Source: an uncultured Candidatus Peribacteria bacterium (GTDB lineage: Bacteria; Patescibacteriota; Gracilibacteria; BD1-5; UBA2023). From it: 64,000 bases of DNA. Position 1 is the stretch's first letter; every line of letters starts with the position of its first letter. The position numbers were made by a program, and so were the translations under genes. The stretch is taken from NCBI GenBank assembly GCA_964655935.1, contig CAZZNY010000001.1, positions 214,606-278,605 of the forward strand, read 5' to 3'. The notes beneath the pieces were generated by a model. The model searched no databases. It was given only the letters and a program-made list of their open reading frames with translations, and had not been told where the DNA came from. This document shows, piece by piece, positions 4,780 through 55,581 of the stretch.

Positions 4780-7700
4780 CTACTTCCTCACCATCGTTCC
4801 AGCTTCAAACTTATCTATCGCTCTTACGAGTACCAGACGAACATAGGAGAAAACCTTTAATTCACGATCGCTTAGATTATTTTGTTCTAAGCGTTTTTCG
4901 AGATATACAGAAATTTTTCTATACATCTGAATCTTATTGTAGAGGTTATCTGTTTTTCGCTCGATCGCTATATTGATTCGTGTAAGATACTTTTGTTCGA
5001 TATATTTTCGGATCTCTTTGCTCAGTGGTTTTGTGGCTGAGAAGTCATATGAATCAAACAATGACTGTTGAGCTGGATCGATTTCCTTGATGAGATCTGG
5101 ATTTTTACCAGTTATTTGTCAGTTTTTCGGTGCATCACAGAGTCCATCGTAGTAGCTCGGTGAATTATCGACTCCATCACACTTATCGACTGTGAGCCAG
5201 ATTCCACTTCATCCGGAAGAAGTGGAAGTTTTATCATACAATACGAATTTCGAGAATTTTTTCGTGTAGATTCCGACTCGATTTGTATCGTAAAACCAAC
5301 AAGATTGTGAAATTTTATTCATATTTTCACATTCTGGCAGATCTTTCGTCGCATTCAAATGGTATGAGACAACTTTCGCAGGTTTTTTCCAGATGTTTTT
5401 CAGAATTATGAGATTGTAATTTTCAAATACAAAAGGCGTAATTTCATCTCAAACTTCGACTCATTCGAAAGGAGTATACCCTTCTAATTTTGGCAAATCT
5501 TTTACGATGAGTAATGGCTTATCAAGCTGGAAATCCCATGGAGAACCGGCATAGATGGTCTGTCCGCTCGCATAACGCACCTCGATGCTTCCATCGCTGC
5601 TATACTGCGCGAGATACGGAGCAAGATCGGTTCGCATTCTGACGATATATCGGATCAGAGTTTCATCGACGAGATAGTTATCGAGAAGATCTTTCACTTT
5701 TCAGAAAATTATCGCATCATTGAGTTCCGCAGCAGAAATAATTTTCAATGGAATACTGGAAGTATCTGGTGCAGAAAGATAAAATACATCAGCTCATACG
5801 GAAGCGTCAGGATCTCATTTTTTGTAGACGGAAATATGATATGAATGATCGCGATATGGATCAGCATTTACATCTTCGAAAACATTCGGACCGGAAGTAG
5901 TATTTTTACAATCAAGAACTTTAAGTCCGTCTCGTACAATATCAAAGCACGTATCTGCAAGATAATTCGTACTAAACTGAACACGCGTATGTTCGCCTGT
6001 TCTTCGAGCTGTCTGATCATAGATTCGAGCTCCGACGAGTGGTAATCGCACGAAACTTTCAGCGATGATATTTCCAGAACCGTCCAGGATAGAACCCGTG
6101 AGATTCAAAGGCAACATTACATCGATATTATCGAGCTGAAGCGCTACATTTCCATTATCTGGAGAAAGAATACTTCCGGTAAGAACTGAACCCGTTCCCT
6201 GAGTTCCAAGCCAAGAGAATGAATATCCGTACTTCCCGAGAGCATTCGTATGAAATCTGAAATTCACCGAAGCGTCCGTCACACTGTAACCACTTGAAGT
6301 CAAGAATGCAGTTTGACCAGTGAGTGATAATTGCTCATTTTTAATAGACTTAAAGTTTCCGTTTTTGGTTCGGTATAATGAAGTCGTATCAATAATATGT
6401 GACTGGAGTGGATCAAGTGACAATGGAGTCACAAGTACTTCGCTTCCAGTGTTCGTCACATGAGAAAGTACTGGTATCGTATCGATATTTGCATCCCAGT
6501 ATATTCAAACAGTATTTCCCGAAAGTGTGAGATTTACCGTGTCAGATCATTGTTTTTCGTAAGTAGATTCTGTCTTTATAAAATCAAGCGTAAATCCAGT
6601 CGAATAACTACCAGAAAGAGCTGGTAAAATCGGGTCGTAAGGTGTGAATTTATAATTTGCACTATTTACGAGTTCGATCGGAGTATCTTGATACGCTCCA
6701 GAATACGTCAGATAGATCGGGAAATAATTCGTGATTCCTGGTCACACCGCTTCTCATTCCGTACCAAGTGCACCAGATTCGCTATAGAGATTTCGTATGA
6801 TAACTTGATTTCCGCTCACTGTGGCATTTTGTGTGAGTGTCGGATTGATAATCACTCAGCTTCAGATATTTACTGTCATAGTAGGATCAAAAGCAATATC
6901 AGTTCCGATATTTTTAAGGAACAACTTCACTTCGACCGTATTCTCCCCTTCTGCAAGTTTCTGAACTTCTAATTGATCATTTTTCGTATTTCAGATAAGT
7001 GCAGATCGATACCAGATATCGAGTTTTGGGCCTTGTGCATATCATTTCAGAGGAATCGTATTTGTTTTCACTTTCGATTTTCCACCGAAATTTGTGAAAT
7101 TTACGCTATCAGAATTCACTACTGGATGTTCACCATCAGTAAGCTCTTCTTTTTTCAGATGTACAAGCACATAGGTTTTTGGAATGATAGATCCACTGGC
7201 GTTTACGTATGGGAATTCAGTGATTCCAGCATTCGCAAAATCAATATGCGCAACCGTGTCAGATCCAGAAGAACTTAAAGCTCAAGAGAATGTACGAAGT
7301 GCAAATCCTGAAGACGAAAGACTCTCGAAAGTTTCTCGAAGTCTTCGGTGTTTATTCGTTCCATCACCAGCTGCCAGTCGCATCTCAGTGACTCATTCTT
7401 CAGTAAGTTCGTATGCGGTATCGAGCGTAAATCCAGAGTCATATGCTATATCTAGACTCACTCCAGTAGAATATCCAGATCGATAAAAAGCTGCATTATT
7501 TGCGTCAGCAAGAGCAAATTTTATATCAGGAAGATTCACTTTTGATGGCCAACCAACTGGATCTTTTCCAGATTCTCACGGAATATTTTGGAAATATTGT
7601 GGATTAATCGAAGCTTTGATGTCATAGATTTTTGCTCGAAGATTCTCTGGAATCAAAGGATCGATCGAAAGATCAAGGAAATAACTTCCCTTAAATCCAT

Positions 7701-10700
7701 CACGAATTGTCGTAACATTTACAAAATCGAAATCGAAGAATGTTCCTGGAGTAAGAATATTCGCATCGGAAGGAGTAATAGTTACGAAAGGTTTGATATC
7801 ATCAGGAATTTCTAGTTTCAAGAAATTATATCTATCGGGTTTCAAAACATTTCTCGCAACTTTCGTGATAAGATCGTTCGCGTTCAATGCTTGATTTCCT
7901 TGAATCGTAAAATCAATACCACCATTTACGTAGGTCACATATTGATTATTGTTCGTATTCGCGACGGTACCGGTACCGAGCATCGCCCAGTCAAAACCGG
8001 AATTATTATAGATATCGAGACGAATGAGCGTTTTATCACCTGGATCAAGAAGTGATTTTGTCGCAGCTTTATTATACGAAGCTCCGACATAGACACTCGC
8101 ACCATAGTTTCCATCTCATCGAGAATCGATATAGATTTCATCTTTCCAAGGACGAGCCGTCTCTTTTCCATGAGTATCCACGAAAAGTTCACCAGGATCT
8201 TTTACGGTATAGAGAAGATATGCGTCTGTCTTATAATTTTTCAGAGTATACGGAATAAGCTCTTTGTCGACTGTAATATCCGAGTTCACGGATTTTACGA
8301 CTGAGACAGGATTATCGACGATCTCGAAAGCATTCGGACCAAAAGCAGGATTCCAATAGACGAATCTTCCACCTTCAATAATCTTTGTGTCACCTTCAAA
8401 AAGTGGCTTGTCAGCAAAAGGCTGAAGTCGATTCACGATATTTAATGCTTCTTTTGCTTCACCACGCAGATTCGAAGCAAAATAGAGCCAAAATGCATCC
8501 TCAGTTTCTACGATATTATTTATTTTCTGGAGATTATTCGGATCAGAATATTTGCTCGCAAAATCATTCGAATTACAAGAATATGTCGAAAGATAATTCG
8601 CGTTCTCATTCTCTTTCTGGATCCACGGAATTATCGGAATAACATTATTTATAAGACTATTCGGACGATACTGATATTTTCCCGGTTTCGAGATTAGTTC
8701 GATCGGATTAAAGAGACACGCGTAGATATTTCATCCTGCAGGTGCAAAATCAAAATCTGACTGTGTAATAAGCGGAGCTTTTACGTAATCACCACCATTA
8801 TAGGAATATGGAATTTTATTAACCTCGTTTTGTCCCGCAAGAAGCGTCACATCACGATTTTGGAGATTTTCTGGCCACCATCATTTTCGGCTTGGATATT
8901 TCCAAGAAGTATATGGTGTGATATTATTTTCGATTTTTCCAGTATTCTGAACCTCATACTGGAGATATCCAGGTTCCTCAGAAAAATATTTCGTCTTGTA
9001 TCCAACTCACCTGTTCATCGGAATCGCGAGAATGTTGTGTGGCAAGTATTTTGCTGGATTCCAGAATTCCTCAGAATGTGGATTCGGAAGCTGATTATCC
9101 ATATGGTAAGGATATCCTTTCGAGTAGACGCTATCGTCATAATCGAAGTGTGTCAGATTCCACATATTATTTTCGACATAATTTTTCGGGAAATAGTTCT
9201 CGACTTCGGGAGAATAATTACGCGCTTTGTCATCGATAAATTCGCCAGATGCAAGACTTACATTTCACTTTCCATTCTCTGCTCTATGAAGCGTCGGAAC
9301 AGAATAATTAGTAAGTCATGAAGCAGTAAGTTCTGCTTGTAATCAAGCTATAAATGCATCATATGCGGATTTTGTATCAAAAAGTCGTACATTTCTAATC
9401 CAATAATTATCGATGGAATCAAGGGTTTTATCTGAAAGTTTATAGTTTGTCTCACCATTGTAACCAGTTACGGTTGTACCGGTTCCATCCCAGCACGTTC
9501 CATACGCTGGTGAAGTCGGATTATCGTTACAAGTGGTCGGATCAAAATATCGTGGATAATTGTTGTAGAGTTTGATATTTTGACGGATTTCGAGTTCCGT
9601 TTCTCCATCCCAAGTTTCTTTTTTATTTCAGGCCTTATCATACATTTCATACGTCGTATTCATCATGAAATTACGAACTGGAGGAGGTAATGGAACCGCT
9701 TCCGGCACGACCGTACGAATCGGAGCCGCAAACTGTCGACCAAAAATATCTTTATAATCCACACGGGCATTTTCTGTCGCAAGTGGAATTATCTGTGATT
9801 TTCCTGTTGTCAGGTATTCACGGAAAGGAATCGGAGAAATACCAAGAACTCCCACATTACCAAACATCGCACTGTCAGCCATAATTCCAGGATCTTTGAT
9901 CGGATGATCTTCGGCTACTCACCAGACCGTTCGGTGGAATGCGAGCTCTTGAATATATGTTCAGAATCGAACCATTGGCTCGAGATTCTCATATTTTCTC
10001 ACGTAACTTTCAGAGAGCGTATTCGTGAAAATGGTTGTTATTGATGTTTTTTGATCTACAGAAAGCTTAGCTTGTGTCATGAGAGAATTCAGTGCGGAAA
10101 TACTACTCGACTTAAAAACAAGCGAATGACTGTAATAATCAGGAACTGTGAAAAGTGCGTTCGTCTGACCTTCCGTGAGACCAATATCGGTAATACTTAC
10201 ATCTTTAATTCGTTTTCGTCGTGGCATCGTGAATGTCATCTTTACTGCTGGAAGTTTGAAGAATGCATATTTTGCAAAATTCACATTCATATCTTGCTCA
10301 TGATCATATCGACTGGAATTCACACTCGAAAGATCGTAGGTCAGAGAATATATTTTAACAGAAATATTTGCTACGTCTTGATCGACTCATTCAAGTGCCA
10401 AACCAACAATAGATTTTAATGATTGTTCATTCGGAAGTTTTCCACGATAAAAGTAGACTCGAGAAGTCTGACCAATTGTCTCAATTTTGTTGATCGCGAT
10501 ATGATCCGCGAGGACATACACTTTCGAAGGATTTACTCCGTCTGGAAGTGTAAATTCCATATATCATCATTTCGGAGTCGAGCGAGGTGGTAAATAAAAA
10601 CTCGCGTAACTTCCTTTTACATATTTGATCGGATACGCTTCGCTTTGGACTCCGTTCTGATCTTTTTGTCCGATATAATTTCCGTCGGCATCGAATCCAT

Positions 10701-13185
10701 CAAGCATCTCTGGTCCTGAAATATTATTTTTCGGATCGATCGGGAAGAGATATTCTGTCTGACTCATTCCTGCTGGAAGATGATCAAAATCGATCTTTTC
10801 ATTAATCCAAGGCAACAGTGCCCCAGATGCATTACAAGCGATCGAATTCGGATACTTCCCGGCGACTACACCATCAGGATAACCGTAGACCCCCGATTCT
10901 TTCGCACAGCTTCCGTATTTATCCATCGAGATATACTGATTCACGCCAGTGATTCCATGTGGAAGTGGGAAAGCTGGATTATTATAGAAATAGACATCTT
11001 GACGAGCAAACAAGAGCTCTTTTTTTGTCGGATATTCGAATACCATACGTCGTGGACTTGCTTTTCTGAAGAGAATATCAGCATCAGGCATAAAAGATTG
11101 CCTCAAGATATTTTTTCCGAGATCTGGAGAAAGCACGCCGGTATGAACATTCGCAAAAGCTTCATCAGCGTCAGTATTCGCTCGATACACCGGCTCGTCA
11201 TAATTATCGACATACTGATATCGATTCGTATTTGGCATATAACTTATCGAGCCACTTGCAAGTTTTGGGATAATATAGTCCTTGCATCGATTTGGGAGTA
11301 TGAGATCGGTCACCGCACAGTTTCACTCGTTTTTAAAAGGATAAAATCCTGTTTTCGTATCTGGATTATAAAGACTGTTATGATAATCTTTCGAGAAAAC
11401 GATTCGAGAAATCAGACGAGCCTGATCACTTTCTTCGAAAAGCGGAGACAAAAGCGGGACACTTACAGTATAATCTACATCATTTGCTTCGGTTGCTGCT
11501 TTATTTTCCGCATTCATAACCTGATCGATATACACTCATTCTCCAGGAAGTGGATAATATCCAGCTGGATCAATATTCAGACTGGTTCGCATGTTTGCGG
11601 ATTCGACCGCATCGATCGTCTGAGCTCACATATTCTGGTGAATTTGCGCGCCGTTTGAGTCAGTATAATCCAGAGTCGTACGAGTAACGACAATATCAAG
11701 ACCAGCTTGAGTGAATGTCGGTTCATCAACTTTTAAACCAAATTTTAGATTCCATTTCTCACTCGAATCGAGTCGAGATCGAGTACAAATAAGCTGACCA
11801 GTAGAAGATCCATACTGACAATCTGCTGGGATCGCCGTGTCAATAAGAAGACCTCCTGTCGCGATATTTATAGTTGCAACCGCATTAGAAACAACACCAT
11901 TAAAAACATTTGTCGCATCCATCGAATATTCGAAGACGAGATTTCGTTCGAGTGCTGGCACAAGATCTTCCCGCACATCAGGATTTGATTTTTGCGCTAC
12001 TTTCGCACTCGTGTAGACTTCCCGTAAGAATGAAAGCGCGATACTATTAAGAGTGTGATTAATGAAAAGTTTATGAGAATTGCTCTGTGGAGAAAAAAGA
12101 CTGTTTCCACCATTATAGACGATGAGTCCATGTCCGTATGGCTTATAAAATGCGCTGATCGCGCTGTCGAGATCCAGCGGCGCATCTTCACTCGTCGTAA
12201 CATCTTGAAAATAATAATTCGCATCATGACTTACATCGAAATATCGGACCGGAACGATCGCTGCATCAGCCAAAGGACGAATATAATAAGATCAAAGCAA
12301 ATATTCATAATATCCGCTTCCAGTTTTCGCGAAATAATTCTTTCCTTCATAAAATCACTGATTCAAAACCTGAGTGTTGAAATCATTACTACTCTGTAAA
12401 AGAAGTTTTCCTTGATTTTCATGATGTTTTACGAGCGTATTGTCATCGACGACTCGATTCGTTAGTTCCATCTTATCAGCAAGTATGAGGCTTTTCGAAG
12501 AAAAATATACCGTTCCTCCATTTTCTACGAAAGACTTAATCTTCGCGATTCCTCCGGATCCAAAATCATCAAGAATCTCACTGTGACGACCAAGAATAAT
12601 ATCTGGGAAAATAATGGTTCCGTATTTTGAGAGATCAGCATCTGGGATCTCAGAAGTTTTTATAACATTCACGTAGGTTCGTTCTGGATTTTTATCGTAT
12701 TCCGTCTTAAAAGTCACATAATTCGGAAGACAAATATTGTTTCAGATTTTTACGAATTTCGCGAGTGAAGCGATAAGAAGATCACAATAATATGGAGCCT
12801 CGTATGTATACCTTCCACTATTCGTTGTCGGAAGATCGACTATAGCGATATTTCCATCATATAGAGCTTTTCCATATCAAAATTGATAATTCGTAACTCC
12901 AGTCGAAGTTACACCGCTATTTTTAAGTTTTGTCGCATCGAGCTCTCGATACCCAGATCAAGATCCCGCTTCGATAAGTGTCGAGGTCGCGATCGGACTT
13001 CGATTCTGAAGAAGATATTTCTGCGTATCATATATCTTTTTCTCAGTAAGCGGAATTTGCGACATTCCATCACTGATGATATTAGTCTTTTCAAAAATAA
13101 TCCCCGCATTTGCAGCCGCAAAGAGAGATCATTCTGAAGAAACGAGAAAGCACAACAAAAGCGCTCAAGCGAGAAGTCTTCGCAT
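4780..13185 (-). CDS. giant secreted/cell-surface protein, 2,801 aa, function unknown
   Basis: Eleven minus-strand track ORFs (4780-5061 through 12355-12717) share one frame. I split all 140 sequence lines into codons and found 41 in-frame TGA and zero TAA/TAG between ATG 13183-13185 and TAG 4780-4782. The N-terminus MRRLLAGALLLCFLVSSEGSLFAAANAG looks like a signal peptide. Alternative ATGs at 13203 and 13212. Confidence 0.85.
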
Positions 13186-13540
13186 AGTATAGAAGGGTTT
13201 CATAATAGACATATTACCAAATAAGGGGGCGTTGTCTTCGGATGCGTTTTTGGCATACCTGAGACCTCATGTCAGTGGTGATAAGCCAGCTGACCCTTAT
13301 ATTGATTTTTATTTTTGCGATCTTTTAGTGTGTTTGTCAATCATTTCTATCTTGTACTTGACATTATAACCGAAATCCAGTGAATGCAAAACTACAGGTA
13401 TGGACGAATTGAAATATATCATCGTTTTTAGAAAGAATACTTCTCCAATGCGAACAAATCGTGCTGAATATGAAATATAATTTTGACTTGAGAGCATTGC
13501 CTTATATACTTAGGCCAATTTACTTTTTTATTCTCTTTTT

Positions 13541-14600: not shown

Positions 14601-15131
14601 CTATGGTTCTTTGGGGCTGATTGCATTGATCCTCATGAGGACGACAGAACCAGCTTTTTCTGTTGAGAAGATAACACTGAACCAAACATTATTTCCGTCT
14701 GGCTGCCTTTGGTATAAATCCGCCCGAATATCACTTCTTGGTTGAGAGTCACTCATAGTACCAATTACGGCATTCCGAATGACACACTGCGGACAATGTA
14801 ATGTGTTGCCACAACCACCTGGAAGATGTGAATACTCACAATTGAAAATTACTCCTCCAAGCTTGTCACGTACTTCCGATAGATCTTTGCCAAGTGCGAG
14901 TAAATTCATGGTATTTGCATGAATCGCACGAGCATTTTCATCCACCACCAAAATATTCGTTGGTAGCGAATCAATATAATCCAAAAAGTCTTGTCCTCTC
15001 CCATTTGAGATAAATGAGGCGGAACAATTCTGACAAATACCATGAGTTTCCTCAGGAATATCTATCAAAGAATCCTCCTTTAAATGAAAGGATCCAAGAG
15101 CAACTTTACACCAAGCACAAATACGTTTCAT
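14601..15131 (-). CDS. Cys-rich (CxxC...CxxC) PAS-like protein; compositionally foreign
   Basis: MKRICAWCKVALG...ETHGICQNCSASF...GGCGNTLHCPQCVIRN. 176 codons with no TGA. GC is visibly higher than the flanks. GGAGA lies 5 nt upstream of the ATG. TAG stop. Confidence 0.65.
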   Translation of the reverse strand: MKRICAWCKVALGSFHLKEDSLIDIPEETHGICQNCSASFISNGRGQDFLDYIDSLPTNILVVDENARAIHANTMNLLALGKDLSEVRDKLGGVIFNCEYSHLPGGCGNTLHCPQCVIRNAVIGTMSDSQPRSDIRADLYQRQPDGNNVWFSVIFSTEKAGSVVLMRINAISPKEP

Positions 15132-15242
15132 ACTATCTCCATACAAAGGGATCCTTATGATCCGGGTTTTGTTTGTAATTGCAAAATGCAACTCTTGTCT
15201 TATATCTAAAAAATGTTTTATTGCAAAAGAATAATCAAAAAA

Positions 15243-17818: not shown

Positions 17819-19417
17819 ATGAACACTAAAAAATCTGCATTCACCCTCGTCGAACTTATCGTAGTTATCGGGGTTCTTTCGGTTTTGAGCACGATAGCTT
17901 TTGTTTCATTTTCTGGATATAATTCTAATTCTCGAGATAGCGTACGTGTCACGGACTTTAATAATCTTACTGTAGCACTCGAACAATCAGTAGCAAAAAC
18001 ATATACTCTTCCAAAACCTGGAACTAGCATAGAAATCAAAGTCGGGTCTACAGTTACTTGATATCAATGATACGCTGATAAAAACGTTCTTGACACAATT
18101 GCCTTATCAAATGCAAAAGATCCTCTTGATGGAGTCTACTATACTTATGCCACAAATGTCGATCTTACGAAATATCAGCTTCTCTGATTTTTAGAGAATT
18201 CCGATAGTCTTACTTATTTTTCCTATAATAAAAAGCTAACGCTTCCGGAATTTTCCATTATTCCTTCTGCTCATGCAGAACCTGCTACGTATGCGAACAG
18301 ATTTATCGTATCGAAATGAAATCAACTCGGAGTTTTCCTTAATCCAGTGACTTTTCTGCCAATACAGACAAATTATAATGCCAGCACTTTCACGAGCCTC
18401 GATATCGCAAATACTACGAGTTCGTATGTCAGTATTCTCAATAATACTTCAACTGGAAAAATCACGGGAACTGGAAGTGCTCTTGCTAGTATCAATCCAG
18501 CATCAAGCTGTAAACGAATTTTCGAGAGTGGCATCGGAAAAGTCGCTGGAGAATATACACTAGTAACAAATACTATTACCTATCAAGCTTACTGTGTTCC
18601 TAATTATACTGATAAAATCGCGACGTCAGAGCTATTAAATACTGATGCGGAATATGGAAGTAATCAGTACTGGGGTGGAAATACCACCGTTCAAGCAAGT
18701 GATGCTCACTCTGGAAATTATACTTTCAAATCCACTTGACCATCCACAATCTTTTCAAGTTATTATATTCCAATAGATACAACAAAAACCTATAAAATCG
18801 AAGGTTGGTTTAAGTCTGTTTGAGTGGCTCAAAGTAAATTATATTTCGGTTATGCTCCTTATGATGGAGATTTTCGATCAATAACTGGTCAATCAGTTAT
18901 TCCTTACAGTTGAACTGAAACAGAATTATATGAACCCGTCATTGCTTCCGATACTATAGTAAAATTGGTAAACAAATGAAATACTTGTACTAACATAGGC
19001 GGAGTTACTTATTTTTCAAACTATGCATCCATAGCTTTTGATATCGATACTTCTTGAAATTATTGAGACTTGCCAAATTTTAATACAAGTCCTTCAACAT
19101 GATTCGCCTCTATAGTAGATAATGGAGCATTTTGTACTCTTACTACAAAATCAGCCGTATGAAAAATCTATCCAGTCGGCACAAAAACGAGAATTCATTC
19201 TTCTGGTGGTTATGCATATGTTGCTGCTGCTAATACTCCAATTCCTACAACATGGACAAAATATGAAGCAACCATTTCTTGAGAAACACTCTACTGAGCT
19301 TCAAACACAAAATTTTGGAAAGGCACAAAATATGTTAAATTTTTAATACTTTCGAATTATCAACAAAGCATGAACGAAGTGTTATTGTTTGACGATCTGA
19401 AGATTACTCGATTATAA
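17819..19417 (+). CDS. type IV pilin-like protein with a large C-terminal beta-sandwich/lectin-like extension (532 aa)
   Basis: The N-terminus MNTKKSAFTLVELIVVIGVLSVLSTIAFVSF is a prepilin leader plus hydrophobic helix. Track ORFs 17819-18061 and 18347-18739 share the frame. All codons to TAA 19415-19417 were checked. Confidence 0.8.
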
Positions 19418-19426
19418 TATAAAATT

Positions 19427-20737
19427 ATGTTTCTAAAAAATAACAGATCCTGATTCACTCTCGTCGAGCTTATCGTTGTCATCACAATACTTTCGATTCT
19501 TTGAACGATTGCTTTTTTATCCCTTAATGGATATTCTTCTTCTGCACGAGATAGTGTACGCATAACCGACGTAAGCCTCATCCAAAAATGACTTGAAATC
19601 TATGATACAAAAGCAGGATTTTACCCAATGGCCGATGGTAATTATGTTACCGTAACTTCTTCTGGATCAGATATATCATATCAAGGGTTTGTATGATCAA
19701 AACTCTCCACTCTCTTAGGATTAAATAACTGAATAATCGATCCGCTTGATGGTGGTCAATATACATATAGTGTCGATACAAAATATAGAAAATATCATAT
19801 CGTATGACTCACTGAAAATAAAGATTCTCTTGCTTTTGTATCTAAGACTTATGCTCTGGATTTTTCTAATCGAAATATTTTATCAAAATGAAATTTTTCT
19901 CTTTCTATTATCTCAAACACGGGAAATACCATAAATACACCCTTGAATTATCTACAAAATTGATGAACGAAAGATATAGATTCTCTAGATCCAAATATAT
20001 ATTGAATGTATCACAATTGTAAAGAAATTAAAAACACTCTCCATACGAATACATCTTGACTGTATCAGATAAATCCAACTTGAACAAAAGTAATCAATGT
20101 TCAGTGTGATATGGAAACAAATGGTTGAGGTTGGACAATTTTTCAAAAAAGAATGGATGGTTCTATGGATTTCTATCGTGATTGGGCGGATTACAAAAAT
20201 TGATTTTGAAATCCACTCACGGAATACTGGATCTGAAATGACAATCTGAATATTCTTACAAATTCTTTCGAAACAACCTGATTACGAATAGATATGCAGA
20301 CTAAAAAAACTGATGGTGGTATAAAAAGATATGCTGAATATTCAAGTTTTAGTACGGACACTGAGGCAAATAAATATAGACTTTCCGTATCTTGATTTTC
20401 CTGAGACACTTATAATTCATTTTGAGGACATAGCTGATTTTCATTTACTACTCGTAATCAAGACAATGATACCAATATCGGTAACTGTGCAGTATCATAT
20501 AAGTGAGCCTGGTGGTACTGAACCTGTCACTCAGCAAATCTGAACTGATTATACTTAAACTGAATTCACAATTCCTACGCAAATGGTATTAATTGGTCTG
20601 GATTTGTTTGATTACCTGGCAATACTCCTTGTGAATGATATAATCCTTGACCAAATAATTCTGTTAACTGTTCGACTCATCCAAGCTCATGATGGGGTTT
20701 TTATTCTCTCCCCTTTGTAGAGATGAAATTACGTTAA
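19427..20737 (+). CDS. type IV pilin-like protein fused to a fibrinogen-related (FReD/FBG) lectin domain (436 aa)
   Basis: MFLKNNRS[G=TGA 19451-19453]FTLVELIVVITILSILGTIAFLSL. The C-terminal half reads [105 protein letters not shown]. TAA at 20735-20737. Confidence 0.85.
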
Positions 20738-38699: not shown

Positions 38700-40256
38700 C
38701 TATAGACTACTCAACGTAGAAAATGAGACTACTTGAACTACATCCTGAAGATTACCACTCGCATCTTCTGCGGTAAAGAATATGATGAATGCAGAAGAAG
38801 GAGAAAGACTTGTGAGCGAAAAGCTATTTGTACCCGTAGTGGTCGCGAGTGAACCTTTTATACTTGCAACCACTGAAGTCGCGTCTTGTCAGAGCTTAAT
38901 CTGTGCGGCAGTCGGTGTACTAGAACCGTTTGAAAGAACTACATAGTATCCGGTTCCGGATTCACTCACATCCACAGAGACAGTGGCTCCGGAAGAAGTT
39001 ATCCCTGTCGCGGAGAGCGCCGTGATCACTGGAGGAGTGATATCGACGATGAGCGTGGTAAGAGGGGTACTCATTACCGATATCGAGAGATTACCACTCA
39101 GGTCTTCCGCCACAAGATAGAGAACATAAGAAGTATTCGACGTGAGACCAGTAATGGTAAATGTGTTCAATCCACTCGCTACCGTACCAGAACTCGCCAG
39201 AATGACACTTCCGGAAGCTGCGTCTTGTCAGAGCTTCACTTGAGCTGCGGTCGGTGCGGTAGATCCACTCGCAAGAAGTACATAGTATCATTTTCCAGCT
39301 TCAGTACTAGTAAACGAGAGATTTGTACCAGTCGAAGTCACACCGCTTAGGGTCAAAGATGAAAGAACGGGAGGGGTGACATCGGGAATATTCGTCGTCA
39401 TAAAGGTAAGTGAGAACGCTGCAGTCTGAAGATTTCATTTTAGGTCAGCCACTGCAAAATATATTACATAAGTTTGCACTGCCGTTAAGCTAGTTACTGA
39501 GAAAGTATTCGTACCACTGGTTAGGAGTACTGAACCCCGAAGAGGTACGAGTGAACCAGAAGAGTCTTGTCCAAGCTTCACTTGAGCTGCCGTCGGTGCA
39601 GTAGATCCACTCGCAAGAAGTACATAGTATCAGATACTTGATTCATTCACAGTCGTCGTGAAAGTCGCAGAATTCATACTTATTCCACTCGCCGTAAATG
39701 CGCTCACGACTGGCGGAGTAACATCTACCACGGCTCCACTACCAGTAAGTCCATCGATTCTTTCCTGGACAAGGATTCTGATCGCTTCCAGCATATCCAG
39801 ATATTTCTCTTTTCTTTCCGGAAGCATATTTGAATTACTGATATTGTTTTCCAGTTTCGCTATCTTACCGATGACTCGAAGCAGGAAGTCAAGACGTTCT
39901 CACTGAGGAACGCGATTAATTTTTCCATCTATGATATCACGATCTCCAGTTCGAAGTGCTGGTTTTCAGAATCTCAGCATATTATTTCTTTTTTCTTTTT
40001 CTTCTCGTTCTTTTTTATCTTTGTTTTTATCTTCATTTGATTTTTTATTTTGTAATGCGGTTTTATTTTTTTCTTTTTCTTTTTTATTATCTTTATCCGA
40101 TTTTGCCACTATTTGTTTTGATTCATGTCGAGAAACAGAATTTCCCGGTGAATCTTCACCATATCCATACTGTCAGAAAGACGTATCTCCAAAAACCATC
40201 GCACCTATAAGGAGAATGCTTCCCAGCAATAGAGATGACTTGTTCTTCAATATCAT
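38700..40256 (-). CDS. secreted surface protein with three tandem ~113-aa Ig/FN3-like repeats (518 aa)
   Basis: MILKNKSSLLLGSILLIGAMVFG..., a Lys/Glu-rich spacer, then three copies of (DVTPPV.S...G.TS.GA......E.G..YYVLLASGSTAPTAAQVKLGQD...). Frame checked. TAG at 38700-38702. Confidence 0.8.
38883..39640 (-). repeat. three tandem DNA repeats, 339-342 nt period
   Basis: The anchor GTCTTGTC(A/C)(G/A)AGCTT...AGTACATAGTATC recurs at 38883, 39222 and 39564. Confidence 0.8.
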
Positions 40257-40458
40257 ACAAAATATGGTTAAGGAATAAGTCCTGTCATTATAGTCTCAAC
40301 GAGTCAGAAATCAATAGTTCAATGTAAAGATTATGTGAATTCTATGAATAAAAAATATCATAAGATATGATCGCTTCCCAGAGAGAAAAGATGGTAATAT
40401 ATAATCGATTGTGCTGATAGATAAAGGAAAAATATATGCTGTCATTTTAAGACGAAAA

Positions 40459-42433: not shown

Positions 42434-42939
42434 ATGTAACGTTATTTATTATATTATATAAGTTTTGGTCAAAAAAACCTCGCATATTATATCCAAAACT
42501 TCCGGAAGTCCAATATATAATTTTCTTATGTTTGAAATTCTTGTTTTTCTTGAATTAAAAAAACACAGATATTTCAAGTATTACAGAAATATATTGAGCA
42601 AGTTCCCTGTTATTTTTCGTTATTAAATTTTCATAAAAAAATACTCAAGTTTTATCTATTTTATGCGAAAGTTTTCTTTTTGACTTATGCTCATAAAGGA
42701 CTAGACTGAATGTGTTCAACATCATCTAGTAAACCTACCGAATCTATCGGTAACCTAGAAGGAAGCTTATTTTGTCGCGGTTACGCTACAAGAATGAGGC
42801 TTATTTTCAAGCATACTTGGAAAATTTTAATGGCCGAGTAATTTTTACCTTTCTATTTCATAACAAAAACGAGGCCAGATTAATAATGTTAAATGATATT
42901 TGATCTTTCGACGATTTATTAGTTCTTAATTTGATTAAT

Positions 42940-45900
42940 ATGAAAACACTCCATAGAAATATAGTGATACTATCTACTATTATCACTGCCATATTCGTTC
43001 TTATTGGTACGAATATCACTCAAGCCTCTACTCCTATTGCACCCGTTAATCTCTTATCGGCTGGTAACTTTGCCGTACTCTCAAAAGCTGCAATAACAAA
43101 TATACCCTCTTCAATTATTACTGGTGATATTGGTGCAAGTCCCATCTCTGGAACCGCTATTGATATTACTTGTGCAGAAGTAACCGGAAATATCTATGCT
43201 GTCGATGCAGCTGGACCACTCCCTTGTGGTATCACTGATTCAGTTTTATTGACCGCTGCGATAAGCGATATGGAAACTGCTTATACGAATGCAGCAGGAA
43301 GAACTATTCCAACCGCTACCGAACTCGGAGCTGGAGATATTAGTGGTCTCACGATCACTCCTGGTCTCTATAAATGGGGTACCGATGTTATTATCTCGAC
43401 AGATGTAACTCTCTCAGGTGGAGCAAGTGATGTCTGGATATTCCAGATTGACGGAGATCTTAGCATAGCTTCTGCTAAAAAAGTCCTCCTCTCCGGTGGT
43501 GCTCAAGCGGCAAATATTTTCTGGCAAGTTGGTGGTCCTACGGGAGCAACCCTCAATACCACATCAGTATTTAATGGAACTATTTTAAGTTCAAAACAGA
43601 TTATTATGCGTACTGGAGCAACCCTCAATGGTCGAGCTCTCGCGCAAACTCAAGTAGTACTTGATCAAAACACTGTTACGGCTCCTGCAACTCAAATCTA
43701 TCTCCTTACTTCTGTAAATATTGCATCAAACAATGCTTCTGGAAGTTTTGCAACCCCAGGAGATGTTGTTACTCTCAGTTTTACTGGAAGTAAATCACTT
43801 ACTGGAGTTATAGCTACTATCTGAGGACAACCAACAACCGTAACGGGATCCACGAATTTTTGGCAAGCGTCCAGAACTATGAGTGGAACTGATTCTATCG
43901 GAAATGCTCCATTTACGATCGATTACGAAGATCTAAATCATAATGTCTGAGCTACGATAACTGGAACAACCGATTCTAGTTATGTATACTTTTTAAAACC
44001 TTTACCTGAGGTCGCTATCGACTATTCTCCAGCCACGCTCACGGGAGGATCTGTAGTGGCAACAATCTCAGGAACCGGAAGTAATCCAGCTGTTACTTTC
44101 AGTGGTTCTACGACACATACTTTTACGAATAATGGAAGCTATACTTTCGATTATTCAGATGGATCAGGAAATACTGATTCTACCTGAGCTACAGTGACCT
44201 GGATAGATAAAGTAGCCCCTGTATCTTCCGCAAAAAATGTAACACTTATTACCCAAACTGGTGCGACTATCTCATTCAATTTCACGGAAGCAAACTTTGC
44301 GAGTGGAACTGGACAAGTTCTCGTCTACACTGGCGGAACTCTTACAAATTTTGTAGAAACCGGTTCTCTCAGTCTTTCCTTCTCTGGAGGAAACTGAAGT
44401 GGAATAGCCACTTTTGAAAACCTTACTGGACCGATTCTCTATAATTACATAATCAATGTAACTGATAGTGTAGGAAATATTTCTTCTGATACTGGGGTTT
44501 TCACTTCAGCTTCAGCACCTCTTACTCTCACTGGTGGAACTGAGACACAGACTGGAGCGGTTACCTTTACGGGAACAACTATTCCAGCTGGATCTACTCT
44601 CGATCTCAGTGGCACTACCGTAAACATAATTTCAGATGTCAGTGATAGTTCATATATCACTGGATCGCTTTCCATAGATACAAACATCACGGTTACTGGT
44701 GCAACTGCATGGAACGGAGTCATAGCACCACCAAAACTTATCGATAGTACTTCTTCGGAAGCTGCGACCGGAAGTGAAATCTGATCAGGAATCACAGTCA
44801 CTGAGACAATAAAGGTCTGAGTCGACGGAGCTTCTCTTATTCCTGCGACTTCGACTTGATATTTTACTGTATCATTCATCGTTCCAGGATATTCTTCTGG
44901 TACGCTTCTAGGCTTATACCGATCTGATGATGGTACGACTTGGACACGAGTCACTCCAGACGGAAGCTGTACGCTTGATGCGAATCTGATGTGTACATTT
45001 CGTACAGATCATCTCGGATTTTTCGCACCAGTTATAGATAACGTACCAACTGCATTTAGTTTTGCTGCCGTCACTGGAGCAGAGCTGGGTACTGAGTATA
45101 CTTCTGTAATGACTGTAGCCTGAATTAATACAGGCTCTACAGTAACTATCTCCGGTGGACAATACAAAATCTGAAATGGCTCTTATGTCACTTCTGCTGG
45201 AACCGCAAATAATGGCGATATAATTACCGTAAAATTAAGTTCTTCAAATCTCTATTCTACCGCAACATCTCTGACTCTCACGGTCGGATGAATCGGTAAT
45301 GCCTTCTCGGTTACGACAAAATCACAACCAAGTTCTGGTGGTGGTGGAGGTGGAGCAAGCGCAGCTGTAGATAATTGTCCAAGTGGAGATACTTCTGCGA
45401 GTTACTATGATGGAGTATGTTCCCCTTCTGCAAACGTAACTATTAACACAAATCAGAATCAAACAGTTATTACTACTACAGTAAATGGGGCTACTACTAC
45501 AACAACTTTCATAAAACCAGCTCTAGTAATTTCATCACTGAGTGAAATCAAATTTCTCGATATCTCAGATAACTGGGCGAAAGAATATATCCAGCATCTC
45601 GTAGCACGATGAGTCATAAATAATACTACAAGATTCAATCCAGACAGCAATCTTACTCGTGCAGAGTTCTTAAAAATTGTTATCAGAGCTGCAGGATTGA
45701 CTATAGATCCTGCTGGTGCTACACCATTTCGAGATGTCGATGCGAATTCATGGTATGCACCATACATCTCATACGCACTTTCGAAAAATATCGTAACAGA
45801 CAAAAATATAAATTTTCGTCCGAACGACTCGATTAGTCGAGCGGAAGCTGCTAAAATAATCGTCGGAATCTTTGGAGTGAGCGTAGCAAATACGAACATC

Positions 45901-46071
45901 ACTTTCTCAGATGTCGATGCGAATTCTGATCTCACAAGATACATAGAAACTGCGAAAACTCTCGGTTTCTTCTCTGGACAAGTCGCGAATGGAAAACTCT
46001 ATTTCCGTCCATATGACGCTATCACTCGAGCAGAAATCGCAAAAGTTGTCGTTCTTGCATTTAAGCTCTAG
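42940..46071 (+). CDS. large cell-surface protein: DUF3494 (ice-binding-like) domain, Ig-like region, three C-terminal SLH domains (1,043 aa)
   Basis: LLSAGNFAVLSKAAITNIPSSIITGDIGASPISGTAI...IFWQVGG. The C-terminus has three copies of F.D(I/V)..NSW...YI......I......F.P...I(S/T)RAE.AK. All lines 43801-45720 were checked and only TGA interrupts. Confidence 0.8.
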
Positions 46072-49205: not shown

Positions 49206-51275
49206 ATGAGTAAATCAATGATCTATCTCAACGAACTCATCCTTACGAAAGTAAGGGCTCTAAAAACAATATCTTCTTGGAGTCGACCACCGACCCTCTA
49301 TCAAAGTCATCAGTACCACTGGGGATGGATCATGTGTATTCTCCTCTTATTTACTCAGCCCTGTTTTTCTACTGAGCCTTTGCAGATTCCCGCAGGCTTA
49401 GACGGAAAAAATCTAGGACATCATGTAGAAATTTTACATGATCCTGAAGGTCGTCTGAGTATCGATGATGTTAGTGTTGGATCTGCTTCTACGCGATTCA
49501 CACCATCATTTTCAGATACTCCAAATCTAGGATACACAAAAGATACTATCTGGGTTCGTCTACCTATGGTCAATTTGCAGGATACGACACATTCCTTTTT
49601 ATTGGAAATGTCGTATCCACTTATGGACCGTATTGAAGTTTTTGTAAAAAATAATGGACAGTGGACTCAACGGATAACTGGAGATCATCAGCCATTTAAT
49701 CAACGGGAAATTCAGTATCCAACCTATCTTTTCCAGGTTGATCTTACCCCTCAAGAAAAAACTGTCTATTATTTCCGTTTCCAGTCGACAACATCTATGA
49801 GCATTCAGCTGTCCGCCTGGGAAAAACAAGGTTTTCTCGAGCACTTCAGTCACGAACTCACTTTGATGGGGATTTTCTGTGGCATCGTATTAGCCATGGC
49901 AATTTTCAACTTTTTTGTGTTTTTGGCAACTCGAGACAAAAGTTATCTCTACCTAGTAATTGTTATTATTCATTGTTTGCTATTTACGACCATTATGAAT
50001 GGTGTGGCTTTCCAATATTTTTGGCCAAACCAGATTTGGTTAGCAAATTATTCACTCCCACTTACTATCGCTTTCTCAAATTTATCATTTTTGCAGTTTA
50101 CTCGGACATTTCTTGAACTACGAGCGAATCAGCCACGGCTTGACTTGCTCGTGCGTATCTTACAAATAGGATGTGTAGGGATCGCTCTTGCTGTTCCTAT
50201 TATTCCATATGAAATAAGCATACGGCTACTAGTGATCATGTCCACCATAACTGTAATAATGATCCTTTTTATAGGAATAATAAGTCTAAACCAAGGATAC
50301 AGAGCGGCAAGAATTTTTTTACTTGCCTGGACTGGTCTTATTTTCGGCAATACCATCTTGTCTTTAAAGGTTTTCGGAATCCTGCCGGACGTCTTTTTGA
50401 CTCGATGGAGTCCTCAATTAGGAATTCTTGCGCTTGTGCTCCTTATTTCCCTTGCGCTTGTAGACAAGCTACATATTCTCAAGAAAGGATTAGAAACATT
50501 AACCACGAATCTCGATAAGACAGTTCATGAACGCACCCACGAACTCGCCATTGCGAATCATGAACTACGGGAAATGAATATGCAAAAAAATCAATTTTTC
50601 GGGATCGTGGCCCATGATCTCAGAAACCCCCTAAATGGTATTATGCTTGCAGCGCAGCTTTTGGACGATGAAGATTATCCAAAAGATGTTCAACACACTG
50701 CACGGCAAATTAATCATGAAGGTGTGGAAATGACGGCTCTCATCGGGCGTTTCCTTGATATCTCTCGAATAGAATCTGGACAGATGTGTGCAGAACCAGA
50801 GGTTTTTCACCTCCAGGAAGTTATACACCATATCGCGAATCGCCATACGAATGGAGGGATAAAAAAAGATATTTCTCTCGTGTTCGTCATGTCGAATACT
50901 CCGATCTTGGTATATGCAGACATCAAGTTCATGAAAGAGGTCTTGGACAACCTCATTTCCAATGCTATTAAATTTTCCCCGCGAGAAAAAATTATCACTA
51001 TTCGAGCGGAGATTACAGGGGGTAAAGCTCAAATTTCAATCGAAGATCAAGGACCTGGCCTCACAAAAGAAGACCACGCAAAGCTCTTCGGACGATTTGC
51101 ACGTCTCAGTGCTCAGCCGACAGATGGAGAAAAATCCACTGGCCTAGGATTATCCATAGTTAAACACATGGTGGATAGTACTGGCGGCCGAATCTGGGTA
51201 GAGAGCGAACCTGGCTATGGAGCTGCATTCCGCGTGGAACTCCCATTACCACCAGATACAAAAGATATAAACTAA
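49206..51275 (+). CDS. 7TMR-DISM-type sensor histidine kinase (689 aa), compositionally foreign
   Basis: Periplasmic domain plus 7 TM segments. H-box FFGIVAHDLRNPLNGI, N-box LDNLISNAIKFSP, G-boxes IEDQGPGL and GTGLGLSIVK. 689 codons without a single TGA. AGGAGA lies 7 nt upstream of the ATG. Confidence 0.85.
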   Translation: MSKSMIYLNELILTKVRALKTISSWSRPPTLYQSHQYHWGWIMCILLLFTQPCFSTEPLQIPAGLDGKNLGHHVEILHDPEGRLSIDDVSVGSASTRFTPSFSDTPNLGYTKDTIWVRLPMVNLQDTTHSFLLEMSYPLMDRIEVFVKNNGQWTQRITGDHQPFNQREIQYPTYLFQVDLTPQEKTVYYFRFQSTTSMSIQLSAWEKQGFLEHFSHELTLMGIFCGIVLAMAIFNFFVFLATRDKSYLYLVIVIIHCLLFTTIMNGVAFQYFWPNQIWLANYSLPLTIAFSNLSFLQFTRTFLELRANQPRLDLLVRILQIGCVGIALAVPIIPYEISIRLLVIMSTITVIMILFIGIISLNQGYRAARIFLLAWTGLIFGNTILSLKVFGILPDVFLTRWSPQLGILALVLLISLALVDKLHILKKGLETLTTNLDKTVHERTHELAIANHELREMNMQKNQFFGIVAHDLRNPLNGIMLAAQLLDDEDYPKDVQHTARQINHEGVEMTALIGRFLDISRIESGQMCAEPEVFHLQEVIHHIANRHTNGGIKKDISLVFVMSNTPILVYADIKFMKEVLDNLISNAIKFSPREKIITIRAEITGGKAQISIEDQGPGLTKEDHAKLFGRFARLSAQPTDGEKSTGLGLSIVKHMVDSTGGRIWVESEPGYGAAFRVELPLPPDTKDIN

Positions 51276-52404: not shown

Positions 52405-52409
52405 ATAAT

Positions 52410-54119: not shown

Positions 54120-54194
54120 AATTGGTACTTATAGTCTGTAGATTTATAGTCGTCATTTCATATAATGGCGACTATATTTTGTTTTATTTACACT

Positions 54195-54395: not shown

Positions 54396-54411
54396 TAAAG
54401 TCATCTCCATT

Positions 54412-55578: not shown

Positions 55579-55581
55579 AAA

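What the first reader, a model, noticed from the sequence alone, without database searches (positions are those of the whole stretch)
19427..20737. Type IV pilin-like protein fused to a complete fibrinogen-related (FReD) lectin domain
One uninterrupted code-25 frame joins a canonical prepilin N-terminus to a C-terminal ~220-aa domain. The N-terminus is RS-G-FTLVELIVVITILSILGTIAFLSL. The domain reproduces the fibrinogen-gamma/ficolin signature almost motif for motif: NCKEI, SGLY.I.P, V.CDM...GGGWT.FQKR.DGS.DF.R.W..YK.GFGN, E.W.GN..L..LT, YRL, F.T.D.DND...NCA...GAWWY..CH.ANLNG.Y, GI.W and YSL...EMK.R. FReDs are carbohydrate/acetyl-group lectins that are overwhelmingly eukaryotic. Displaying one on a pilin scaffold would give a pilus with built-in glycan recognition. 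That is an obvious candidate for host or prey attachment in an episymbiotic CPR bacterium. I am not aware of a described pilin-FReD architecture.
Basis: partly seen in the sequence, partly recalled or inferred. Interest (0 to 1): 0.85.

Follow-up and report, generated by a model that had tools for sequence, protein, structure and literature searches.

The report
Pilus subunit carrying ficolin-like lectin
A tiny bacterium that reads the stop codon TGA as glycine encodes a pilus subunit fused to a complete copy of the sugar-recognition domain animals use in immune lectins (ficolins), probably to grip other cells; this is a striking new example of a known way of building adhesive pili, and its function has not been tested.

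Summary
Window 19427-20737 (+) is one open frame under code 25, with 29 in-frame TGA codons and one TAA stop. It encodes a 436-aa protein with a canonical prepilin N-terminus (PF07963, E=5.6e-9) and a complete fibrinogen-related domain, FReD (PF00147, E=2.7e-61). The FReD is 50.5% identical to human ficolin-1, and its model matches L- and M-ficolin at TM 0.93. It is native and not an assembly chimera. TGA codons sit on invariant Gly columns, GC is even across both halves, and three independent assemblies are identical. The Ca2+ site, both canonical disulfides and four of five acetyl-pocket residues are conserved. A unique 28-residue insert with two Cys sits at the fifth pocket position.

It belongs to the known class of "modular type IV pilins" (S. 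sanguinis PilB and PilC). The pilin-fibrinogen domain combination is already counted in a published supplementary table, but partial modules can also produce such counts. I found no other pilin with a complete FReD in 1.84 billion representative proteins, 185,579 genomes or the metagenome contigs. Related code-25 bacteria carry arrays of pilins with swapped lectin-like modules. The donor of the domain is unresolved. No pilus machinery lies in the window. Glycan binding and pilus display are inferred, not shown.

The parts
19427..20737 (+). Whole gene: a modular type IV pilin with a C-terminal FReD (436 aa under code 25, 29 TGA=Gly codons, TAA stop)
19427..19453 (+). Class III (prepilin) leader MFLKNNRSG; the Gly(-1) codon at 19451-19453 is TGA
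   Evidence: Sequence read directly; PF07963 and TIGR02532 above their cut-offs
19454..19615 (+). Mature N-terminus FTLVELIVV... (Phe+1, Glu+5) and the long alpha1 helix (residues 10-63)
   Evidence: Model mc8c97be4c6e7 has a helix at 12-63 with pLDDT about 90; the family profile matches geopilin (1e-13), GspG, PilE1, PpdD, MshA and PilA through alpha1
19616..19816 (+). Pilin globular module: a four-stranded antiparallel beta-sheet (residues 64-130)
   Evidence: pLDDT 88-97; 38% identical to the upstream paralogue and 45-56% identical to short Gracilibacteria pilins. The fold search gave no significant PDB match
19817..20008 (+). Linker between the modules (residues 131-194), low model confidence
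20009..20734 (+). Complete fibrinogen-related domain (residues 195-436), ficolin/tachylectin-5A type
   Evidence: PF00147 at 207.6 bits; PDB sequence hits; model pLDDT 85-98; Foldseek TM 0.93 to L- and M-ficolin
20462..20482 (+). Ca2+ site: Asp346 and Asp348, with backbone carbonyls expected from Asn350 and Gly352
   Evidence: Mapped onto FIBCD1 Asp393, Asp395, Ser397 and Asn399
20486..20581 (+). Cys354-Cys367 disulfide and S1 acetyl-pocket residues Tyr358, His368, Tyr384 and Ala385
   Evidence: Mapped without gaps onto FIBCD1 Cys401-Cys414, Tyr405, His415, Tyr431 and Ala432
20612..20695 (+). Lineage-specific 28-residue insert LPGNTPCEGYNPGPNNSVNCSTHPSSGW with Cys402 and Cys415, at the position of the fifth pocket aromatic (FIBCD1 Trp443 / TL5A Tyr248)
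   Evidence: Absent from all 15 aligned homologues and all 62 in A3; pLDDT 46-59
17819..19417 (+). Upstream paralogous modular pilin (532 aa): a prepilin head plus a 360-aa C-terminal module with no Pfam match; its stop lies 9 nt before the FReD-pilin start
19389..19418 (+). Best sigma70-like site of the region (TTGACG-18-TATAAT, 11 of 12), ending 8 nt before the ATG; a possible own promoter giving a near-leaderless mRNA
   Evidence: This is a consensus match only, and the total site count is not above the shuffle expectation

Best explanation
The gene encodes a modular type IV pilin. The N-terminal 130 residues are a standard pilin module: a class III signal peptide, a hydrophobic alpha1 helix with Glu5, and a small beta-sheet. 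A linker of about 60 residues joins it to a complete, ficolin-grade fibrinogen-related lectin domain. The proposed mechanism runs as follows. A prepilin peptidase cleaves after Gly9 (inferred). The pilin module is inserted into a type IV filament, most likely as a low-abundance subunit at the tip, because the 27-kDa module is bulky (inferred by analogy with S. sanguinis PilB and PilC). The FReD, stabilised by Ca2+ and three disulfides, binds an N-acetylated or similarly small-group-bearing glycan on another cell through its conserved S1 pocket. The Cys-stapled 28-residue insert next to that pocket tunes specificity (inferred). The filament thereby acts as an adhesin for host or prey contact by a code-25 CPR bacterium. 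In evolutionary terms it is one product of a lineage-wide habit of grafting interchangeable lectin-like modules onto a conserved pilin scaffold. The domain architecture, native status and conservation of the binding-site residues are shown. Processing, filament incorporation, ligand and biological role are inferred.
For: The architecture and both domains are significant. The pilin head is homologous to solved pilins through alpha1, and the model shows alpha1 plus a four-stranded sheet. The FReD fold matches ficolins at TM 0.93. The Ca2+ ligands, both canonical disulfides and four of five S1 residues are conserved, using the residue definitions from PMC3908420. The gene is native and reproducibly assembled. 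It has a tandem paralogous modular pilin upstream. Locus L004, from another code-25 genome, has six tandem pilins carrying Laminin_G_3, Fib_succ_major and fibrinogen-like modules. Their pilin modules are up to 79-96% identical while the C-terminal modules are unrelated. There is precedent for lectin-bearing, tip-located modular pilins (PMC8179133, PMC9934059). Gracilibacteria express type IV pili and are inferred to be host-dependent (PMC11452946). Absconditabacteria use pili for host attachment (PMC8080830).
Against: No PilB, PilC, PilD or PilM genes, and no obvious major pilin, lie within the 64 kb window. The rest of the genome was not visible. The fold search of the pilin-half model found no significant PDB match. 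Both models were built from the code-4 translation, with Trp at 29 Gly sites, so the side-chain geometry of the pocket and insert is unreliable. The fifth pocket residue cannot be assigned: it is either L396 or F425. Animal FReDs gain avidity from oligomers, and nothing shows that this module oligomerises. No ligand, expression or localisation data exist.
Confidence: 0.6

Rival explanations
1. The protein is a membrane-anchored surface lectin rather than a pilus subunit. The prepilin-like N-terminus serves only as an N-in/C-out anchor, cleaved or not, that holds the FReD on the cell surface. Vertebrate FIBCD1 is a comparable case: a type II membrane protein with a FReD ectodomain.
For: No assembly genes lie nearby. 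A second code-25 FReD protein (L018/P0295) has a plain hydrophobic N-terminus without Glu5, so FReDs in these lineages are also displayed without a canonical pilin head. Pilins reside in the membrane before assembly (established type IV pilus biology).
Against: The head is not merely hydrophobic. It has the complete G|FTLVE motif, and a full pilin globular module is conserved with short Gracilibacteria pilins at 45-56% identity. A simple anchor would not need that module.
Confidence: 0.2
2. The FReD module binds a protein or peptide ligand rather than a carbohydrate or acetyl group, as fibrinogen gamma-C, angiopoietins and tenascins do. Alternatively, the insert has created a different specificity altogether.
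For: The same P-subdomain surface binds peptides or receptors in several FReD families listed among the PDB hits (fibrinogen gamma, angiopoietin, tenascin). The 28-residue insert replaces or displaces the fifth pocket residue.
Against: The closest sequence and structure matches are the acetyl-binding lectins: ficolin-1 and -2, tachylectin 5A and FIBCD1. The residues that define acetyl recognition (Tyr358, His368, Tyr384, Ala385 and the Cys354-Cys367 bridge) are all present.
Confidence: 0.15
3. The finding is an artefact: eukaryotic contamination, a chimeric assembly join, or a pseudogene read through with the wrong genetic code.
For: Some GTDB 'MAGs' do carry animal FReD genes, with a collagen region plus a FReD or with intron-split matches. 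This shows such contamination occurs.
Against: TGA codons sit on invariant Gly columns inside the FReD. GC and codon usage are uniform across both halves and match the neighbouring genes. Independent assemblies are identical. The gene has no introns and lies between ordinary bacterial genes.
Confidence: 0.02

Closest known systems
Streptococcus sanguinis PilC and PilB, and the 'modular pilin' class of Raynaud et al. 2021 and Shahin et al. 2023
   Same: An N-terminal type IV pilin module is joined by a linker to a recognisable functional module that is not specific to pilus biology. In PilC that module is a lectin that binds host glycans from a tip-located minor-pilin complex. The class is reported to be common in CPR phyla.
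   Different: The module here is a fibrinogen-related domain, not a ConA-like or vWA domain. The organism is a code-25 CPR bacterium rather than a firmicute. No partner minor pilins or machinery were seen, and no binding data exist.
Animal ficolins, tachylectin 5A and FIBCD1 (acetyl-group-binding FReD lectins)
   Same: The full FReD fold (TM 0.93), about 50% identity to human ficolin-1, the Ca2+ site, both disulfides, and four of five S1 pocket residues.
   Different: There is no collagen-like stalk, coiled coil or FIBCD1-type transmembrane region, so it is not a ficolin. It carries a unique 28-residue insert with two Cys at the fifth pocket position, and a pilin module is attached in place of an oligomerising stalk.
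Other prokaryotic FReD proteins: Ca. Magnetomorum HK-1 'ficolin-2' P0030, P0111, L027, the Myxococcota/Deltaproteobacteria multidomain proteins L005-L017, and NCBIfam NF040941 GGGWT_bact
   Same: Complete FReDs in bacteria. The window protein shares the C-terminal ending YSLPFVEMK[IL][RK]-stop with P0030 and P0111, and L027 ends in the near-identical YSLPFTEMKIK. It groups with P0030 and P0111 in the point-estimate tree.
   Different: None of these has a prepilin head. They are signal-peptide proteins or very large secreted multidomain proteins. Bootstrap support for the grouping is weak (about 15-35%).
Gracilibacteria pilins with short fibrinogen-like modules (L004 7256-8521 and 10001-10867; P0366)
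   Same: The same pilin scaffold family, in code-25 genomes, with a C-terminal module that passes the PF00147 threshold.
   Different: Those modules match only profile positions 5-60 of 221 (24-32 bits) and then diverge, or continue into a LamG-like domain. The window protein matches positions 2-207 of 221 at 207.6 bits.

Membership tests
Type IV pilin (class III signal peptide proteins; PF07963 / TIGR02532) | A short charged leader ending in Gly(-1), then a hydrophobic mature N-terminus with Phe(+1) and Glu(+5) | tested here: met
   MFLKNNRSG|FTLVELIVV... read directly. PF07963 scores 35.7 bits against a cut-off of 21.2, and TIGR02532 scores 28.3 against 16.3.
Type IV pilin (class III signal peptide proteins; PF07963 / TIGR02532) | A long alpha1 helix packed on an antiparallel beta-sheet (the pilin fold) | tested here: inconclusive
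   The AF2 model shows a helix at 12-63 plus four strands at 70-129 with pLDDT 88-97, and the profile matches solved pilins through alpha1. Foldseek found no significant PDB match for this model.
Type IV pilin (class III signal peptide proteins; PF07963 / TIGR02532) | Cleavage and N-methylation by a prepilin peptidase, and polymerisation by a PilB/PilC-type machinery | not testable with these tools
   No such genes lie in the 64 kb window. The rest of the genome was not available. The literature reports that Gracilibacteria encode and express type IV pili (PMC11452946).
Modular pilin (Raynaud et al. 2021) | [quoted passage not shown] | tested here: met
   PF07963 plus PF00147 in one open frame, joined by a linker of about 60 residues. 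The definition is taken from PMC8179133.
Fibrinogen-related domain (PF00147 / IPR002181) | A full-length match to the family profile above the curated threshold | tested here: met
   207.6 bits against a cut-off of 22, profile positions 2-207 of 221.
Fibrinogen-related domain (PF00147 / IPR002181) | The FReD three-subdomain fold | tested here: met
   pLDDT 85-98. TM 0.93 and rmsd about 2 A to L- and M-ficolin; TL5A and FIBCD1 also match. Caveat: the model target had Trp at the 29 Gly(TGA) sites.
Fibrinogen-related domain (PF00147 / IPR002181) | The two conserved disulfides and the Asp-x-Asp Ca2+ site | tested here: met
   Cys198 and Cys227, Cys354 and Cys367, Asp346 and Asp348.
Acetyl-binding FReD lectins (ficolin S1 / TL5A / FIBCD1 type) | The S1 pocket: Tyr405, His415, Tyr431, Ala432 and Trp443/Tyr (FIBCD1 numbering) | tested here: inconclusive
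   Tyr358, His368, Tyr384 and Ala385 are conserved. The fifth position coincides with the 28-residue insert and could be L396 or F425.
Acetyl-binding FReD lectins (ficolin S1 / TL5A / FIBCD1 type) | Ca2+-dependent binding of N-acetylated ligands | not testable with these tools
   This needs recombinant protein and glycan binding assays.
Ficolin | A collagen-like Gly-X-Y stalk N-terminal to the FReD | tested here: not met
   There are no Gly-X-Y runs of four or more repeats, and no PF01391 hit. The protein is ficolin-like in its FReD only.
NCBIfam NF040941 GGGWT_bact (bacterial fibrinogen-like YCDxxxxGGGW domain) | A domain-model match above the cut-off | tested here: met
   49.6 bits against a cut-off of 30, residues 197-238. 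This model covers only the N-terminal subdomain.

The most novel reading that the evidence does not exclude
An animal-type pattern-recognition domain (ficolin/tachylectin class, about 50% identical to human M-ficolin) was captured by bacteria. In a code-25 CPR lineage it has been mounted on a type IV pilus as the host- or prey-recognition head. The same fold that animals use to seize bacterial surfaces would then be used by an ultrasmall bacterium to seize its bacterial or eukaryotic partner. The interchangeable C-terminal modules on a conserved pilin scaffold would act as a cassette system that sets host range.
Probability: 0.3. Interest if true: 0.75.

Novelty: new variant of a known kind. 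Interest (0 to 1): 0.52.

Why it matters
How CPR/Patescibacteria recognise and attach to their partners is largely unknown, and type IV pili are the main suspects. A pilin that carries a complete lectin domain with a well-understood binding pocket is a concrete, testable candidate for a recognition head. The module can be expressed after recoding TGA and put on glycan arrays, which could point to the partner's surface chemistry. The gene is also one of very few complete FReDs outside animals and has been fully recoded to TGA=Gly. It therefore documents long-term residence of an 'animal' immune-lectin fold in bacteria. Together with the L004 array, it illustrates module swapping on pilin scaffolds as a route to adhesin diversity.

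Tried and rejected
This weakens the models at side-chain level.

2. A mixed alignment of pilin and FReD sequences (A2) put the FReD N-terminal half out of register. I discarded it and used two separate alignments, A3 and A4.

3. Foldseek on the pilin-half model gave no significant hits. A profile-versus-PDB sequence search gave the pilin evidence instead.

4. The donor of the FReD could not be resolved. An NJ tree of 39 domains with 200 bootstraps is star-like. The window protein groups with Magnetomorum P0030 and P0111 in only about 15% of replicates, and with some bacterial sister in about 35%. No maximum-likelihood tool was available.

5. A metagenome scan with the single protein found no close relative. 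The alignment-based scan returned mostly coral or other animal contigs and no pilin-headed FReD.

6. The genome-collection scan did not recover the window's own genome. It also showed that several 'prokaryotic' hits are probable animal contamination.

7. Literature searches for the SRA runs and for a survey of bacterial FReDs found nothing usable.

8. There is no tRNA in the window, so no tRNA-Gly(UCA) could be shown.

9. I considered and rejected three readings. It is not a ficolin, because it has no collagen stalk. It is not contamination or a chimera. TGA is not read as Trp (code 4).

Full report
OBSERVATION

Read with the standard bacterial code, the frame 19427-20737 (+) is broken by 29 stops. 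All 29 are TGA, and the only TAA is the terminal codon. Under code 25 it is a 436-aa protein. Long ORFs appear across the whole 64 kb window only when TGA is read as sense, and window GC is 37%. Pfam finds Fibrinogen_C (PF00147; E=2.7e-61, 207.6 bits, residues 195-396, profile positions 2-207 of 221) and N_methyl (PF07963; E=5.6e-9, residues 5-30). NCBIfam finds the IV_pilin_GFxxxE and GGGWT_bact domain models above their cut-offs. The best matches among solved structures are human ficolin-1 (E=9e-60) and ficolin-2, followed by tachylectin 5A and FIBCD1. Identity to ficolin-1 is 50.5% over 194 aligned residues.

IS IT REAL AND NATIVE?

Three results exclude contamination, a chimeric assembly and a wrong genetic code.

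First, in an alignment with 62 standard-code FReDs, 16 TGA codons fall in well-occupied FReD columns. Ten of these are Gly-majority columns, and seven are at least 94% Gly. They include the middle G of GGGW, both G of NGFG, and the G of KGAWWY. Only 20 of 208 columns overall are Gly-majority. Every TGG codon in a conserved column lies on an invariant Trp. The Gly(-1) of the prepilin cleavage site is also TGA. TGA therefore means Gly (code 25), not Trp (code 4).

Second, the pilin half and the FReD half have the same GC (32.6% and 33.6%). Both use TGA for Gly (9 of 18 and 20 of 31 Gly codons), in line with neighbouring genes.

Third, the public protein collection holds this protein as a code-4 translation (P0001). 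It occurs on contigs assembled independently from three sequencing runs. These contigs have the same neighbours and 100% nucleotide identity to the window over about 5 kb.

ANATOMY

Residues 1-9 (MFLKNNRSG) form a class III leader. The mature end FTLVELIVV... has Phe+1 and Glu+5. With an alignment of 49 family members, AlphaFold2 models residues 12-63 as one long helix and residues 70-129 as a four-stranded antiparallel sheet, at pLDDT 88-97. A fold search with that model returned nothing significant. However, a profile of the family matches solved pilins and pseudopilins through alpha1: geopilin at 1e-13, GspG at 3e-7, and also S. sanguinis PilE1, PpdD, MshA and PilA.

Residues 131-194 are a low-confidence linker. 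Residues 195-436 are the FReD. With 63 homologues in the alignment it is modelled at pLDDT 85-98, and it superposes on L- and M-ficolin at TM 0.93 and rmsd about 2 A. I therefore rely on them for the fold only.

For the functional residues I used the definitions in the FIBCD1 structure paper (PMC3908420) and mapped them without gaps. The Ca2+ ligands Asp393 and Asp395 correspond to Asp346 and Asp348. The bridge Cys401-Cys414 corresponds to Cys354-Cys367. The pocket residues Tyr405, His415, Tyr431 and Ala432 correspond to Tyr358, His368, Tyr384 and Ala385. The fifth pocket residue (Trp443 in FIBCD1, Tyr in TL5A and the ficolins) falls exactly where this protein has a 28-residue insert, LPGNTPCEGYNPGPNNSVNCSTHPSSGW. 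None of the aligned homologues has this insert. It carries two extra Cys (402 and 415) and is modelled with low confidence. Depending on the alignment, the pocket position is taken by L396 or by F425. There is no collagen-like region, so the protein is not a ficolin.

SURROUNDINGS

The gene immediately upstream (17819-19417, 532 aa) ends 9 nt before the start codon. It is a second prepilin-headed protein. It is 38% identical over the first 170 residues or so, and its 360-residue C-terminal module has no Pfam match. These are the only two prepilin motifs in the window. The best sigma70-like site of the region (11 of 12) ends 8 nt before the ATG. No terminator-like site occurs until after the downstream YicC-like gene. 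These are consensus matches only. No PilB, PilC, PilD or PilM-type gene lies in the window. The neighbours are a response regulator, an oxidoreductase, a DUF948 protein and YicC. Further away lie several large surface proteins and a restriction/defence block.

RELATIVES

A search with the pilin half finds 683 relatives, many named Candidatus Gracilibacteria. One of them lies on a TGA-recoded contig of 28% GC (L004). That contig has six tandem prepilin genes carrying Laminin_G_3 (two genes), Fib_succ_major (two genes) and short fibrinogen-like modules (two genes). Their pilin modules are up to 79-96% identical, while the C-terminal modules are at background similarity. This is direct evidence of module swapping on a conserved scaffold.

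The short fibrinogen-like modules pass the PF00147 threshold (32.4 and 24.0 bits) but cover only profile positions 5-60 of 221.

An exhaustive HMMER search of 1.84 billion representative proteins found no other pilin with a complete FReD. It did find P0366, a pilin with a short fibrinogen-like stretch followed by a LamG-like region. It also found P0295/L018, a complete FReD in another code-25 contig whose N-terminus is hydrophobic but not a prepilin motif.

A scan of 185,579 species genomes found 13 FReD loci. The genuine ones are large secreted multidomain proteins of Myxococcota, Deltaproteobacteria and 'Proteobacteria' MAGs, plus one protein from a 'Chloroflexota' MAG. Two MAGs carry collagen-plus-FReD or intron-split genes and look contaminated with animal DNA. 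Metagenome scans added L027 and two high-GC contigs with tandem FReD genes, but no prepilin-headed FReD.

There is one caveat. Code-25 genes called with table 11 are shattered into small pieces in most databases, so relatives in this lineage are under-sampled.

ORIGIN OF THE DOMAIN

The domain is 46-53% identical both to animal FReDs and to the bacterial ones. An NJ tree of 39 domains is star-like. In the point estimate the window protein sits with Ca. Magnetomorum P0030 and P0111 inside a loose bacterial cluster, but with about 15% bootstrap support. It is not sister to the other code-25 FReD, which pairs with L009 at 63%. The ending YSLPFVEMK[IL][RK]-stop is shared with P0030 and P0111, and L027 ends in the near-identical YSLPFTEMKIK. 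Animal FReDs end in ...SLK.xEMKIRP.. instead. This is a hint of common bacterial ancestry. Direction and donor remain unresolved. The universal presence of FReDs in animals and their patchy presence in bacteria favour transfer from animals to bacteria, followed by spread among bacteria, but that is an inference.

WHAT IT MOST LIKELY DOES

The best-supported reading is a modular type IV pilin that presents an acetyl-group or glycan-binding FReD on a filament, probably at the tip, for attachment to a partner cell.

- Shown: the architecture, the native status of the gene, the fold, and conservation of the Ca2+ site and most of the pocket.
- Inferred: peptidase processing, filament incorporation, the ligand, and the biological role.

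The main rivals are a membrane-anchored surface lectin that never enters a filament, and a FReD whose insert has redirected it to a non-acetyl or protein ligand.

COMPARISON WITH WHAT IS KNOWN, AND NOVELTY

Modular pilins are an established class. S. sanguinis PilB carries a vWA module. PilC carries a ConA-like lectin that binds sialylated glycans and glycosaminoglycans from a tip complex. A survey of InterPro found more than 1,200 modular pilins in 264 architectures, many of them from CPR phyla (PMC8179133, PMC9934059).

Dataset S1 of that survey already counts IPR012902-IPR002181 (8 proteins) and IPR012902-IPR013545-IPR002181 (2 proteins). IPR002181 is the fibrinogen C-terminal globular domain. 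The domain combination is therefore not new to databases. It has never been described, however, and my result on L004 shows that partial modules can generate such counts.

The new elements are a complete, ficolin-grade FReD on a pilin, its Cys-stapled insert at the pocket, and its setting in a code-25 CPR genome beside a paralogous modular pilin. I rate this a new variant of a known kind, of moderate interest. It is a neat, testable candidate for a CPR host-recognition head and a rare, fully recoded bacterial copy of an animal immune-lectin fold. It is not a new kind of system, and its function is untested.

Noticed in passing
window 17819-19417 (+): The upstream paralogous prepilin-headed gene (532 aa) has a 360-residue C-terminal module with no Pfam match even at E<=0.05. 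This is a second, unidentified module on the same scaffold.
   Followed up: partly
window 51619-57355 (+): A block of low GC (26-31%) with the highest TGA=Gly usage in the window (52-78% of Gly codons). It encodes an N6/N4 DNA methylase, a GmrSD-type restriction enzyme (N and C domains), an orphan 422-aa protein, an IceA-like protein and a D12 N6-adenine methyltransferase. It looks like a restriction/defence island.
   Followed up: partly
window 49206-51275 (+) and 14601-15191 (-): Two ORFs use no TGA at all for Gly (0 of 41 and 0 of 14 Gly codons). The first is a 7TMR-DISM sensor histidine kinase. They may be recent arrivals from standard-code bacteria, or simply low-TGA genes like rpoB (5 of 95).
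   Followed up: no
window 4780-13212 (-), 42772-46071 (+), 38700-40445 (-), 57919-59067 (+): The window is dense in surface proteins: a 2,810-aa giant protein, a 1,099-aa Ice_binding-like protein with three SLH domains (which implies an S-layer or secondary-cell-wall-polymer type of envelope), an fn3-like repeat protein, and a CHB_HEX_C/LTD protein.
   Followed up: partly
L004 3074-10867 (ENA ERZ21784934 ptg001342l): Six tandem prepilin genes in another code-25 genome carry Laminin_G_3, Fib_succ_major or short fibrinogen-like modules. Their pilin modules are up to 96% identical while the C-terminal modules are unrelated, so this is a cassette-like array of modular pilins. The sixth gene appears truncated at 288 aa.
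   Followed up: partly
L018 507-1874 (Logan SRR32020626): A second code-25 contig encodes a complete FReD (PF00147, 210 bits) behind a non-pilin hydrophobic N-terminus (KKG|YIYYF, no Glu5). Its FReD pairs with that of a 29%-GC 'Chloroflexota' MAG (L009), not with the window's.
   Followed up: partly
L006, L010, L014, L015 (GTDB 'Dehalococcoidia' CAXXBX01); L012, L013, L016 ('bacterium' CBDDTI01): These MAG contigs carry genes with a collagen-like region plus a FReD, or FReD genes split as if by introns, and these resemble sponge or cnidarian sequences. This is probably animal contamination of public MAGs.
   Followed up: partly
L039 (1.46 Mb contig, 2 genes) and L044 (508 kb contig, 4 genes): High-GC bacterial metagenome contigs carry tandem arrays of FReD-ending proteins (ending ...EMKVR or ...EMKIR). 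Complete FReDs have therefore expanded locally in some bacteria.
   Followed up: no
window 19389-19418 (+): A near-consensus sigma70-like promoter (TTGACG-18-TATAAT) lies inside the 3' end of the upstream pilin gene and ends 8 nt before the FReD-pilin ATG. It would give an almost leaderless transcript.
   Followed up: no
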